Of a DNA stretch of 64,000 bases, positions 25,005 to 26,283 are shown in pieces. Below the pieces are notes generated by a model. It was not told the origin of the DNA. It worked only from the letters and a program-made list of their open reading frames with translations, and searched no databases. How positions within the stretch are numbered: the first letter of the stretch is position 1; every line of letters begins with the position of its first letter. The stretch is taken from positions 896,001 to 960,000 of the forward strand of contig CP086569.2 in the NCBI GenBank assembly GCA_009914755.4. Reading direction: 5' to 3'. The translations under genes were made by a program, and so were the position numbers. The stretch is from the human T2T-CHM13v2.0 reference genome, Homo sapiens.

Positions 25005-26283
25005 AAAGGACTACAGGTGCATATCCTCACACACAGCTAATTTTTATATTTTTGTAGAGAGGGAGTCTTGTTATATTGCCTATGCTGATCTGAAACTCCT
25101 GGGCTCAAGCTATCTTCCCACCTCAGCCTCCTAAGCAGCTGGGACTACAGGCACACACCACCACACCCAGATAATTTTTATTTTTTTGTAGAGATGGGGT
25201 GTTGCCGTATTATCTATGCTGGTCTGAAACTCCAGGGCTCAAGCTATCTTCCCACCTTAGCCTCCTAAGCAGCTGGGACTACAGGTGCACAACACCACAC
25301 CCAGATAATTTTTATTTTTTTGTAGAGACAGGGTGTTGCTGTATTATCTATGCTGGTCTGAAACTCCAGGGCTCAAGCTATCTTCCCACCTCGGCCTCCC
25401 AAGTAGCTGGGACTACAGGCACACACCACCACACCCAGATAATTTTTACTTTTTTGTAGAGATGGGGTGTTGCCATATTATCTATGCTGGTCTGAAACTC
25501 CTGGGCTCAAGCTATCTTCCCACCTTAGCCTCCTAAGCAGCTGGGACTACAAGTCTCTACTACCACACCCAGATAATTTTCTTTTTTTTTTTTTTGAGAC
25601 GGAGTCTCACTCTGTCGCCCAGGCTGGAGTGCAGTGGCACGATCTCAACTCACTGCAAGCTACACCTCCCGGGTTCATGCTATTCTCCTGCCTCAGCCCT
25701 CAGCCTCCTGAATAGCTGGGACTACAGGCACCCGCCATCACGCCCGCCTAATTTTTGTATTTTTAGTAGAGACGGGGTTTCACCATGTTAGCCAGGATGG
25801 TCTCGATCTCCTGACCTCATGATCCACCCGCCTCGGCCTCCCAAAGTGCTGGGATTACAGGCGTGAGCCAGCTAATTTTCATATTTTTGTAGAGATGGGA
25901 TCTTGCTATATTGCCTACACTGGTCTCACAGTCCTGGGCTCAAACAATTCTTCCACCTTGGCCTCCCAAGTAGCTGGGACTACAGGTGCACACCACCACA
26001 CCCAGATAATTTTTATATTTTTGCAGAGATGCGGTCTTGCTATATTACCTATGCTGGTCTAAAACTCCTGGGCTCAAGTGATCTTCCCACCTCAGCCTCC
26101 CAAAGTGCTGGGATTACAGGTGTGAACCACCACACCCAGCTACTTTTTATATTGTGTTAGAGACAGGTTCTTGCTATATTAACTATGCTGCTCTGAAACT
26201 CCTGGGCTCAAGCAATCTTCCCACCTTGGCCTCCCAAACGGTTATGATAACAGATGTGAACCACCACACTCAACCTAGGCTAG
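25005..26283 (-). repeat. Tandem array of about 9 Alu-monomer-like units of about 133 bp (antisense), interrupted by a full antisense Alu inserted at about 25581-25870
   Basis: Unit ctgggactacaggcacacaccaccacacccagataatttttatttttttgtagagatggggtgttgccgtattatctatgctggtctgaaactccagggctcaagctatcttcccaccttagcctcctaagcag recurs at about 25140, 25273, 25407 and 25540 and again after the inserted Alu. Confidence 0.8.

What the first reader, a model, noticed from the sequence alone, without database searches (positions are those of the whole stretch)
25005..26283. Tandem array of about 9 Alu-monomer-like units (antisense), later hit by a full Alu insertion
Units of about 133 bp resembling the Alu left monomer repeat head-to-tail, then continue after an inserted full-length antisense Alu (25581-25870). 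Two more monomer units occur at 26564-26835 and one at 29703-29833. Monomeric Alu tandem arrays are uncommon relative to dimeric Alus and indicate local unequal crossing-over between Alu arms.
Basis: seen in the sequence. Interest (0 to 1): 0.55.

Follow-up and report, generated by a model that had tools for sequence, protein, structure and literature searches.

The report
Old Alu-derived 134-bp tandem array
One ancient Alu element in this primate DNA was copied head-to-tail on the spot into seven 134-bp units and later split by a younger Alu insertion; this is an ordinary, already understood kind of repeat with no demonstrated function.

Summary
The repeat is real, but the finding describes it imprecisely. 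Once the inserted AluY (25581-25869) and one copy of its target-site duplication are removed, 25005-26275 is exactly seven 134-bp units with no indel. A 34-bp stump of an eighth unit follows, giving about 7.3 units, not 9. The Alu sense strand is the minus strand.

The units are not plain left monomers. The two 5'-most are left-arm type. The other five, and the stump, have the first 38 nt of a right arm; the five complete ones continue as left-arm sequence from column 54 at the latest.

All units share private substitutions that no other Alu copy in the window carries. None has its own A-tail or target-site duplication.

The array therefore grew in place from one AluJ-type dimer, by misaligned pairing of its two arms (unequal exchange or replication slippage) in several rounds. 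The AluY is a true retrotransposition into an A-rich linker. The right-arm end and tail of the progenitor have been lost.

The "extra monomers" at 26567-26835 and 29702-29833 belong to separate AluS elements.

This is a known class, transposable-element-derived tandem repeats. I found no evidence of function. Interest is low.

The parts
26142..26275 (-). Arm 0, the 5'-most unit in the Alu sense. It is left-arm type throughout. It begins at a natural Alu 5' end (GGTTGAGTGTGG, from GGCCGGGCGCGG), 11 bp from the poly-A of the neighbouring AluS.
   Evidence: Diagnostic columns 1, 17, 19, 28 and 38 are L-type. BLAST best hit is AluJo_L, 77%. It is the most diverged unit, 13.5-21% from the other arms over columns 39-134.
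26008..26141 (-). Arm 1. It is left-arm type from column 17 onward but starts with the right-arm-type first base (AGCTGGG). This fits a junction in columns 2-16.
   Evidence: AluJo_L, 84%. It shares the non-CpG change GGCTCAC>GGTTCAC with arm 0.
25880..26007 (-). Arm 2, main part. It is a hybrid unit: right-arm type in columns 1-38 and left-arm type from column 54 at the latest. Its last 6 nt lie at 25575-25580, on the other side of the AluY insertion.
25870..25879 (.). Target-site duplication of the AluY insertion, copy at the Alu 5' end (AGCTAATTTT). With neighbouring bases it can be read as 11-14 bp, CCAG[A/C]TAATTTTC.
   Evidence: Compare with 25571-25580 (AGATAATTTT), 9 of 10 identical. 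Only after deleting one copy is unit 5 exactly 134 bp and in register.
25581..25869 (-). An AluY-type dimer retrotransposed into the A-rich linker at the arm 2/arm 3 boundary. It starts at consensus position 14, has an A14 tail, and carries a 7-bp internal duplication.
   Evidence: Against the AluY consensus it differs at 3.2% of non-CpG sites (7/221) and 24% of CpG sites. It fits AluY better than AluSx (4.9%) or AluJo (11.3%). BLAST gives 90.8% to AluY. TRF finds CCTCAGC x2.
25571..25580 (.). Target-site duplication of the AluY insertion, copy next to the poly-A tail (AGATAATTTT). In the Alu sense it reads AAAATTATCT, an A-rich start typical of L1-endonuclease target sites.
   Evidence: The target-site preference is established knowledge (Jurka 1997, as cited in PMC3208591).
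25173..25574 (-). Arms 3, 4 and 5 (25441-25574, 25307-25440, 25173-25306). These are hybrid units and form the youngest clade of the array.
   Evidence: Their pairwise non-CpG differences are 1.2-4.9%, against 7-21% for other pairs. They share private states at columns 94, 106 and 125. Sharing is mosaic: arms 3 and 5 agree at columns 37, 41, 48, 49, 101 and 111-112, while arms 4 and 5 agree at columns 73 and 100. Each carries the exact 23-nt signature.
25039..25172 (-). Arm 6, a hybrid unit.
25005..25038 (-). Arm 7: the first 31 nt or so of a right arm, then a break into unique DNA. The rest of the right arm, the poly-A tail and the 3' TSD of the progenitor are missing.
   Evidence: Columns 19 and 28 are R-type; column 17 is A, a state common in right arms (28 of 75 AluSx right arms) and never seen in left arms. 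The sequence reads ...CCTGTAGTCC|TTTTCTAGATATATA.
26290..26835 (-). Not part of the array. This is a separate AluS element with the structure L-L-L-R plus poly-A. It contains the two 'extra monomers' of the finding (26567-26699 and 26701-26835).
   Evidence: BLAST gives AluSx_L at 89-98% and AluSx_R at 88%. TRF gives period 135 x2.6. It has no array signature. The middle arm is R-type at columns 17-19 and L-type after that.
29411..29833 (-). Not part of the array. This is a separate AluS element with the structure L-L-R. It contains the 'extra monomer' at 29702-29833.

Best explanation
The array is a neutral tandem repeat derived from a transposable element. It grew in place from one old AluJ-type dimeric Alu lying on the minus strand.

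**Mechanism.** The left and right arms of an Alu are homologous and lie 135 bp apart. The right arm of one copy (sister chromatid, homologue or nascent strand) can therefore pair with the left arm of the other. An exchange or slippage in that misaligned state adds one unit made of a right-arm 5' part, a left-arm 3' part and the A-rich linker.

**Inferred order of events**
1. Insertion of the dimer, with its 5' end at 26275.
2. An exchange within columns 2-16, giving the second left-type arm.
3. An exchange within columns 39-53, at the start of the 43-nt tract where AluJ arms are nearly identical, giving the first hybrid unit.
4. Further unequal exchanges among hybrid units, up to five copies. 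The last round produced arms 3-5.
5. L1-mediated insertion of an AluY into the linker between arms 2 and 3.
6. A deletion that removed the distal right arm, the tail and the TSD.

**Shown:** the hybrid structure, the shared private mutations, the exact register, the TSD and tail of the AluY, and the relative ages.

**Inferred:** the dimeric progenitor, crossing-over as opposed to slippage, the order of steps 2-6, and the absence of function.
For: - **Exact periodicity.** There are seven 134-bp units with no gap once the AluY and one TSD copy are removed. TRF reports period 134 on both sides of the insert.
- **Hybrid units.**
  - At the columns that separate left from right arms (17, 19, 28, 36-38), arms 0-1 are L-type and arms 2-7 are R-type, apart from two CpG-site columns with a variant base and column 37, which is G in arms 3, 5 and 6.
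  - At columns 54, 84, 86 and 87-134, all arms are L-type.
  - These columns are near-fixed L/R differences in 101 real dimeric Alus from the window and from unrelated loci, so the assignment does not rest on remembered consensus sequences alone.
- **J-type unit.** BLAST's best match for every arm is AluJo_L.
- **Common descent in place.**
  - Non-CpG changes are shared by 6-7 of 7 arms at columns 58, 90, 92, 98 and 127.
  - CpG decay runs in the same direction in 7 of 7 arms at columns 4, 8, 53, 80 and 104.
  - The signature TATCTATGCTGGTCTGAAACTCC occurs only in the array.
- **Junction sits where homology is.** AluJo arms differ at only two CpG-related positions over columns 41-83. AluS arms are much less alike there.
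- **Stepwise growth.** Arms 3-5 differ by 1.2-4.9% at non-CpG sites and show mosaic sharing, as recombinant units would. Older pairs differ by 7-21%.
- **Regional propensity.**
  - Seven other loci in the window carry extra tandem left arms.
  - There are many other tandem repeats nearby.
- **The class is known.** 2,663 Alu-derived tandem repeats were catalogued in hg19 and are attributed to local duplication (PMC3389668).
Against: - The progenitor's right-arm 3' half, poly-A and TSD are absent. Its dimeric nature rests only on the R-type 5' segments.
- No orthologous or allelic sequence could be obtained, so neither the order nor the dates of events are tested directly.
- Column 81 (G>C) is shared by arm 0 and arms 3-6 but not by arms 1-2, and the NJ trees differ between site sets. 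Gene conversion has probably blurred the history.
- The distances rest on only 82-96 columns.
They were checked only at the diagnostic columns.
Confidence: 0.85

Rival explanations
1. The block was formed elsewhere and arrived here as a piece, by segmental duplication or as a member of a multi-locus tandem-repeat family. On this reading the abrupt end at 25005 is the duplication breakpoint rather than a later deletion.
For: The 3' end is cut inside an arm with no tail or TSD. The window lies in repeat-rich, VNTR-rich DNA of the kind prone to duplication. Multi-locus TE-derived tandem repeats exist (PMC3389668).
Against: The 5' end of the array coincides with a natural Alu 5' end, as expected for an element that retrotransposed into this site. 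No second copy of the signature exists in the window or in the three collections scanned, though these hold very little primate DNA. Even on this reading, the units would still have arisen by local amplification at the source.
Confidence: 0.07
2. The units are independent retrotranspositions of free monomers (FLAM/FRAM-like), each inserted into the A-rich tail of the previous one.
For: A-rich tails are preferred L1-endonuclease targets, and the AluY did insert into a linker. Free monomer families exist (PMC5753468).
Against: The period is constant at 134 bp. There are no variable tails and no per-unit TSDs. Five units are R/L hybrids, a structure that no described monomer family has. The private mutations are shared by all units and absent from every other Alu in the window.
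Confidence: 0.02
3. The array is maintained, or was expanded, because it works as a regulatory module. It is a cluster of GATA-type sites directly upstream, in the same orientation, of a CpG-preserved segment with a TATA-like box and a splice-donor-like site (24748-25007).
For: WGATAR density is 13.4/kb in the array, against 0.46/kb in other Alu DNA, with 3 sites per unit in the youngest units. The adjacent 260-bp segment has 11 CpGs (o/e 0.92, the highest in the window), TATATATAAA, TGACGTGA and ATG|GTAAGT on the minus strand.
Against: - The motifs are short and were simply multiplied along with the unit.
- Against an assumed background o/e of about 0.35, roughly 4 CpGs would be expected, so the excess is unlikely to survive correction for the 39 segments compared (my estimate, not computed).
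- No downstream coding exon or RNA family was found.
- The units diverge at neutral-looking rates.
- No expression, binding or conservation data are available.
Confidence: 0.05

Closest known systems
Transposable-element-derived tandem repeats, specifically Alu-derived minisatellites and satellites (Jurka & Gentles 2006 as cited in, and Ahmed & Liang 2012 = PMC3389668)
   Same: Part of an Alu is repeated head to tail by local duplication. Units resemble one another more than any other copy. Older (AluJ) elements carry more units. Initiation is explained by direct repeats flanking the duplicated segment; here those repeats are the homologous arms themselves.
   Different: With 7.3 copies it is well above the reported mean of 2.3-2.4 for Alu-derived repeats. 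Its unit identity of 81-89% is below the 95% cut-off of that catalogue, so it would not be listed there.
Free left Alu monomer (FLAM_C / FLAM_A)
   Same: The unit is about 134 bp. The 3' two-thirds of every unit, and the whole of arms 0-1, are AluJ/FLAM-like left-arm sequence ending in the A-rich linker.
   Different: FLAMs are dispersed single insertions with their own tail and TSD. These units have neither, and five of seven carry a right-arm 5' end. At 17-25% divergence, FLAM_C and the AluJ left arm cannot be told apart.
Dimeric AluJ element
   Same: The left-arm diagnostics are J-type. The R-type and L-type segments appear in the order expected from a dimer whose arms exchanged.
   Different: The present structure is L-L-(R/L)x5-R', with no 31-bp right-arm insert, tail or TSD.
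Alu dimers with one or two extra left arms (L-L-R, L-L-L-R), as at 26290-26835, 29411-29833, 34888-35310, 37482-37909, 39679-40102 and 53234-53904 in this window
   Same: They have the same 135-bp register. Most of the internal extra arms, like arm 1 of the array, start with the right-arm first base and become left-arm type by column 17.
   Different: They are AluS-type, have 1-3 extra arms, and have their junction in columns 2-16 (one within columns 20-35). The five hybrid units of the array have theirs in columns 39-53, which fits the longer L/R identity of AluJ arms there.
SVA-type composite retrotransposons (Alu-like region plus VNTR)
   Same: They also contain antisense Alu-derived sequence next to a tandem repeat (PMC5753468).
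   Different: The SVA VNTR unit is 35-50 bp and is not Alu-derived, and the whole element is mobile with a tail and TSD. None of that applies here.

Membership tests
Alu / 7SL-derived SINE sequence | Sequence homology to the Alu domain of 7SL RNA | tested here: met
   BLAST matches every unit to the AluJo left arm at 77-84% on the minus strand. Rfam Metazoa_SRP hits fall in five units with E-values from 1e-11 to 2e-7, below the gathering score of 70 bits (36.6-51.2 bits), as expected for decayed Alus.
Free left Alu monomer (FLAM) | Left-arm sequence over the whole unit | tested here: not met
   Arms 2-6 are R-type at columns 17, 19, 28, 36 and 38, apart from a variant A at CpG-site columns 17 and 19 in arm 3. 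Only arms 0-1 are L-type there. The columns were validated on 101 real Alus.
Free left Alu monomer (FLAM) | Each copy is an independent retrotransposition with its own A-rich tail of variable length and flanking TSDs | tested here: not met
   The period is constant at 134 bp with a gapless alignment. The linker has the same length in all units, and there are no direct repeats at unit borders.
Dimeric AluJ (as progenitor) | J-type rather than S/Y-type diagnostic sequence | tested here: met
   All arms score best against AluJo_L. They carry GCTTGAGCCCAGGAG, ATAGCAAGACC and CTACAAAAA rather than the S/Y forms.
Dimeric AluJ (as progenitor) | Left arm, A-rich linker, right arm with 31-bp insert, poly-A, TSDs | tested here: not met
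   Only the first ~31 nt of a terminal right arm remain. There is no insert, tail or TSD. Loss by deletion is inferred, not shown.
TE-derived tandem repeat formed in situ | Head-to-tail units of constant length derived from part of a transposable element | tested here: met
TE-derived tandem repeat formed in situ | Units are each other's closest relatives and share private mutations | tested here: met
   This holds within the 64-kb window. The signature is found only in the array, and derived states are shared at 10 robust columns, five non-CpG and five same-direction CpG. It is not testable genome-wide with these tools.
TE-derived tandem repeat catalogue of Ahmed & Liang 2012 | At least 95% identity among units | tested here: not met
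   TRF reports 89% and 81% matches. Pairwise identity is 75-92.5%. The criterion is quoted from PMC3389668.
L1-mediated Alu retrotransposition (the 25581-25869 insert) | Poly-A tail, target-site duplication, insertion at an A/T-rich site | tested here: met
   It has an A14 tail and a TSD of at least 10 bp (9 of 10 identical), the host repeat's register is restored on removal, and the site lies in the A-rich linker.
Variable-number tandem repeat (polymorphic in copy number) | Copy number differs between individuals | not testable with these tools
   No second allele or population data are available. Collection scans found nothing.

The most novel reading that the evidence does not exclude
The array may be more than debris. 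Its youngest units each carry three GATA-type motifs, and four of seven units carry a perfect PRDM9-type 13-mer. The array lies directly upstream, in the same orientation, of a CpG-preserved, TATA-box-bearing segment that ends in ATG|GTAAGT. It could therefore be a copy-number-variable, Alu-born enhancer or recombination hotspot acting on an unannotated promoter. Separately, this window may be a regional hotspot for 135-bp Alu-arm duplication, with 8 loci in 64 kb.
Probability: 0.05. Interest if true: 0.5.

Novelty: already known. Interest (0 to 1): 0.15.

Why it matters
It matters little beyond annotation.

- It is a clean worked example of how the internal homology of an Alu dimer seeds a satellite-like repeat. 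The junction positions track the longest identity between the two arms of the subfamily concerned.
- An AluY insertion acts as a time marker inside the array.

Only two things would add wider interest:
- the array proving copy-number polymorphic or regulatory for the neighbouring promoter-like segment;
- the apparent local excess of arm duplications proving to be a real regional property.

Tried and rejected
- **Comparative data.** I made exact-pattern scans for the unique flank and for the array signature in metagenome contigs, genome contigs and viral contigs. All were empty. A control scan with a generic Alu 34-mer found 64 human-contaminant loci in bacterial assemblies. Primate DNA is therefore present but far too sparse for the negatives to mean anything. 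I reused those loci as an independent Alu sample.
- **Identifying the locus or a gene.** Six-frame stop-to-stop ORFs outside Alus looked non-coding. Pfam on the ten longest gave no family. only re-printed the packed ORFs and was wasted.
- **Rfam.** At gathering threshold it finds only two Alu-as-SRP hits elsewhere in the window. In E-value mode it finds nothing in the promoter-like segment.
- **Literature.** I found no paper devoted to tandem arrays of Alu monomers as such. The nearest is the general literature on TE-derived tandem repeats.
- **My own errors, corrected.** The right-arm register was off by two bases, which produced spurious diagnostic columns; it was redone. The linker realignment deleted the wrong base, so columns 119 and 134 there are artefacts; it was redone.
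- **Rejected readings.** These were independent FLAM insertions; the 351-bp 'repeat' at 29886-30834 as a true duplication (it is most simply three adjacent Alus of different subfamily and divergence); and an assembly artefact, because units differ by 7.5-25%, so a collapse or expansion error is unlikely.

Full report
**What is there**

The window is primate DNA. About 33% of it matches Alu consensus sequences.

Tandem Repeats Finder reports two runs of period 134. One is at 25028-25590 (4.2 copies, 89% matches) and one at 25868-26269 (3.0 copies, 81%). An Alu lies between them.

I cut the sequence at the recurring CACACCCAGATAA landmark. I then removed 25581-25869 and one copy of a 10-bp direct repeat (AGATAATTTT at 25571-25580, AGCTAATTTT at 25870-25879). 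This leaves seven units of exactly 134 bp, and MAFFT aligns them without a single gap.

A 34-bp stump of an eighth unit lies at 25005-25038. The other end of the array, at 26275, is a natural Alu 5' end. The array therefore has about 7.3 units. Nine is what one gets by dividing the whole span, insert included, by 133.

The Alu sense strand is the minus strand. BLAST shows this. So do sub-threshold Rfam Metazoa_SRP hits in five units, with E-values from 1e-11 to 2e-7.

A 23-nt stretch specific to the units (TATCTATGCTGGTCTGAAACTCC, up to 3 mismatches) hits six units and nothing else in 64 kb. The shuffled expectation is 0.00.

**What the units are**

I compared each unit, column by column, with the left (L) and right (R) arms of AluJo. 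My first attempt had the R arm out of register. The corrected table is.

- At the columns that separate the arms (17, 19, 28, 36-38), the two 5'-most units (arms 0 and 1) are L-type. Arms 2-7 are R-type, apart from two CpG-site columns with a variant base and column 37, which is G in arms 3, 5 and 6.
- At columns 54, 84 and 86, and over columns 87-134, every unit is L-type (34-36 of 48 identities to L in arms 1-6 and 32 in arm 0, against 11-14 to R).

I therefore checked the diagnostic columns on 101 full-length dimeric Alus taken from the window and from 64 unrelated human-contaminant loci fetched.

| Column(s) | Left arm | Right arm |
|---|---|---|
| 17 | T | G or A |
| 36-38 | ACT | TAC |
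| 54 | G (A where the CpG has decayed) | A |

These differences are close to fixed in real copies.

Five units (arms 2-6) are thus R(1-38)/L(54 onward) hybrids. Arm 7 is the start of a right arm. Arm 1 is L-type from column 17 but begins with the R-type first base. All arms score best against the J-type left arm. At 17-25% divergence from consensus, FLAM_C and the AluJ left arm cannot be distinguished.

**Origin in place**

No unit has its own A-tail or flanking direct repeats, and the linker has the same length throughout.

The units share derived states:
- non-CpG changes at columns 58, 90, 92, 98 and 127 in 6-7 of 7 arms;
- CpG decay in the same direction in all seven arms at columns 4, 8, 53, 80 and 104.

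Columns 119 and 134 are alignment artefacts.

The hybrid structure is what misaligned pairing of an R arm with an L arm at the 135-bp offset produces. In AluJo the two arms differ at only two CpG-related positions over columns 41-83. The junction of the hybrid units (columns 39-53) lies at the start of that tract.

In the AluS elements of the window that carry extra left arms, L/R identity there is poor. Their junctions lie mostly in columns 2-16 (one within columns 20-35): the internal arms start TTAGCC and are L-type by column 17 in most cases. Arm 1 of the array is of this second kind. At least two initiating events are therefore needed.

I cannot distinguish unequal crossing-over from replication slippage or gene conversion.

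**History**

Over the part common to all arms (columns 39-134, CpG columns masked), arms 3, 4 and 5 differ from each other by 1.2-4.9%. Other pairs differ by 7-21%.

Arms 3-5 also show mosaic sharing. Arms 3 and 5 agree at some columns, and arms 4 and 5 at others. This is expected of recombinant units.

The inserted Alu fits AluY best:

| Consensus | Non-CpG differences |
|---|---|
| AluY | 3.2% (7/221) |
| AluSx | 4.9% |
| AluJo | 11.3% |

About 24% of its CpG sites are mutated. It starts at consensus position 14, ends in A14, and sits in the A-rich linker at the arm 2/arm 3 boundary.

Per lineage, arms 3-5 have accumulated about 0.6-2.5%. This is no more than the AluY's 3.2%, so the last expansion is about as old as the AluY insertion or younger. 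The older units long predate it.

Assuming roughly 1-1.5e-9 non-CpG substitutions per site per year (my own knowledge, and with few sites), the AluY is some tens of millions of years old. The last triplication falls roughly within the last 5-20 million years. These figures are rough.

The sharing of column 81 between arm 0 and arms 3-6, and the unstable NJ topology, show that conversion has blurred the tree.

The distal right arm, poly-A and TSD of the progenitor are gone. The array runs straight into unique DNA at 25005. I infer a deletion there. An imported, already truncated block is the main rival.

**The other 'monomer units' of the finding**

- 26567-26699 and 26701-26835 are AluS-type left arms of an L-L-L-R element (26290-26835) that has its own poly-A.
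- 29702-29833 is an extra left arm of an AluS L-L-R element (29411-29833).

Neither carries the array signature, so they are separate events of the same general kind.

More such loci exist: 34888-35310, 37482-37909, 39679-40102 and 6362-6622. There is also a second real array at 53234-53806 (period 135 x4.3, with a 268-bp higher order).

Outside the array, 9 of 69 left arms in the window are followed directly by another left arm. The control figures are:

| Control set | L-L junctions | Fisher p against the window |
|---|---|---|
| All 64 control loci | 1 of 103 | 0.001 |
| The twelve control loci of at least 2.5 kb | 1 of 50 | 0.04 |

This suggests a local excess, but the control sample is small and biased.

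The window is also full of other tandem repeats.

**Comparison with what is known**

FLAM, FRAM and the dimeric families are defined in the Repbase review PMC5753468.

[quoted passage not shown] In hg19, 23% of minisatellites and satellites derive from transposable elements. Of these, 2,663 come from Alu, with mean copy numbers of 2.3-2.4. Older elements have more units, and expansion is attributed to local duplication. Initiation models rest on flanking direct repeats (PMC3389668).

The present array is a large, old member of that class. It would not pass that study's 95% identity filter. Nothing about it is new in kind.

**Function**

I found no evidence for any function. The units diverge at neutral-looking rates.

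The B-box region reads GAGTTTCAGACC instead of GAGTTCGAGACC in five of the seven units, with other changes in the other two. This is a direct reading; the B-box consensus is from my own knowledge. Pol III activity is therefore unlikely.

Three leads were noted and not resolved:
- WGATAR motifs are 30-fold denser in the array than in other Alu DNA.
- Four units carry a perfect CCNCCNTNNCCNC 13-mer.
- The adjacent single-copy 260 bp (24748-25007) has the highest CpG o/e in the window (0.92). On the minus strand it reads TATATATAAA ... TGACGTGA ... ATG|GTAAGT.

No RNA family or coding domain supports a gene there.

**Verdict**

The phenomenon is ordinary and already understood.

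Noticed in passing
window 24748-25007: This is a single-copy 260-bp segment abutting the truncated end of the array. It has 11 CpGs and a CpG o/e of 0.92, the highest of all non-Alu segments. On the minus strand it reads TATATATAAA (24996-24987), TGACGTGA, then ACTCGGATG|GTAAGT near 24814. It looks like a promoter plus a short first exon, but nothing confirms that.
   Followed up: partly
window 53234-53904: This is a second Alu-monomer array, on the + strand. It has AluS-type left arms (period 135 x4.3, also 268 x2.1) followed by a right arm. Alternate arms resemble each other, which suggests duplication of a two-arm block.
   Followed up: partly
window 6362-6622, 34888-35310, 37482-37909, 39679-40102: These are further Alu elements with one extra tandem left arm (L-L-R). 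Counting all such loci outside the array, 9 of 69 left arms are followed by another left arm, against 1 of 103 in unrelated human control loci (Fisher p 0.001, or 0.04 using long control loci only).
   Followed up: partly
window 25252, 25520, 25953, 26221 (+ strand): Four of the seven array units contain a perfect match to the 13-mer CCNCCNTNNCCNC. From memory this is the human PRDM9 hotspot motif. It was created by CpG decay of the Alu site. The whole window has 23 matches, against 2.7 expected.
   Followed up: no
window 25169-25517 (units at 25162-25563): Each of the three youngest units carries three WGATAR (GATA-factor type) motifs. Array density is 13.4/kb, against 0.46/kb in other Alu DNA.
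   Followed up: no
window 43764-47508: A large, homogeneous tandem repeat: 295 bp x12.7 at 95% identity, built from 59- and 147-bp subunits. A related 30/60-bp repeat lies at 42283-42905.
   Followed up: no
window 61981-63803: A 40-bp minisatellite with 45.6 copies at 82% matches (TGATCTATGGTCTGTGATGCTCACCTGGTGTGGATGGAGC). A GGA/GAG-rich simple repeat lies beside it at 60584-61380.
   Followed up: no
window 9139-12096, 3750-4318, 33468-34314, 57987-58628, 28-896, 31663-32943: There are many further tandem repeats: 128/270/405-bp units, 95 bp x6, 50 bp x17.7, 114 bp x5.6, (TCTA)n x218, and (AAAAT)n-like over 1.3 kb. The window as a whole is VNTR-rich, as subtelomeric-type DNA tends to be.
   Followed up: no
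window 58965-59885: A complex mosaic of AluJ right-arm and left-arm pieces on the + strand (R1-101, L28-125, L22-126, L59-135, R24-101, L28-125, L22-135, R26-155). It looks like another rearranged or duplicated old Alu cluster.
   Followed up: no
window 29886-30834 and 48505-49759: TRF reports periods of 351 and 313 bp. These are runs of three and four whole Alus placed head to tail in each other's tails, of differing subfamily or divergence. They are most simply adjacent insertions rather than duplications.
   Followed up: partly
loci L001-L064 (genome contigs): A generic Alu 34-mer matches 64 contigs filed under bacterial and archaeal genomes. They include several contigs of roughly 7-13 kb from one 'Roseivirga' MAG and sites inside two multi-megabase bacterial records. 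This is human DNA contamination in public prokaryote assemblies.
   Followed up: no
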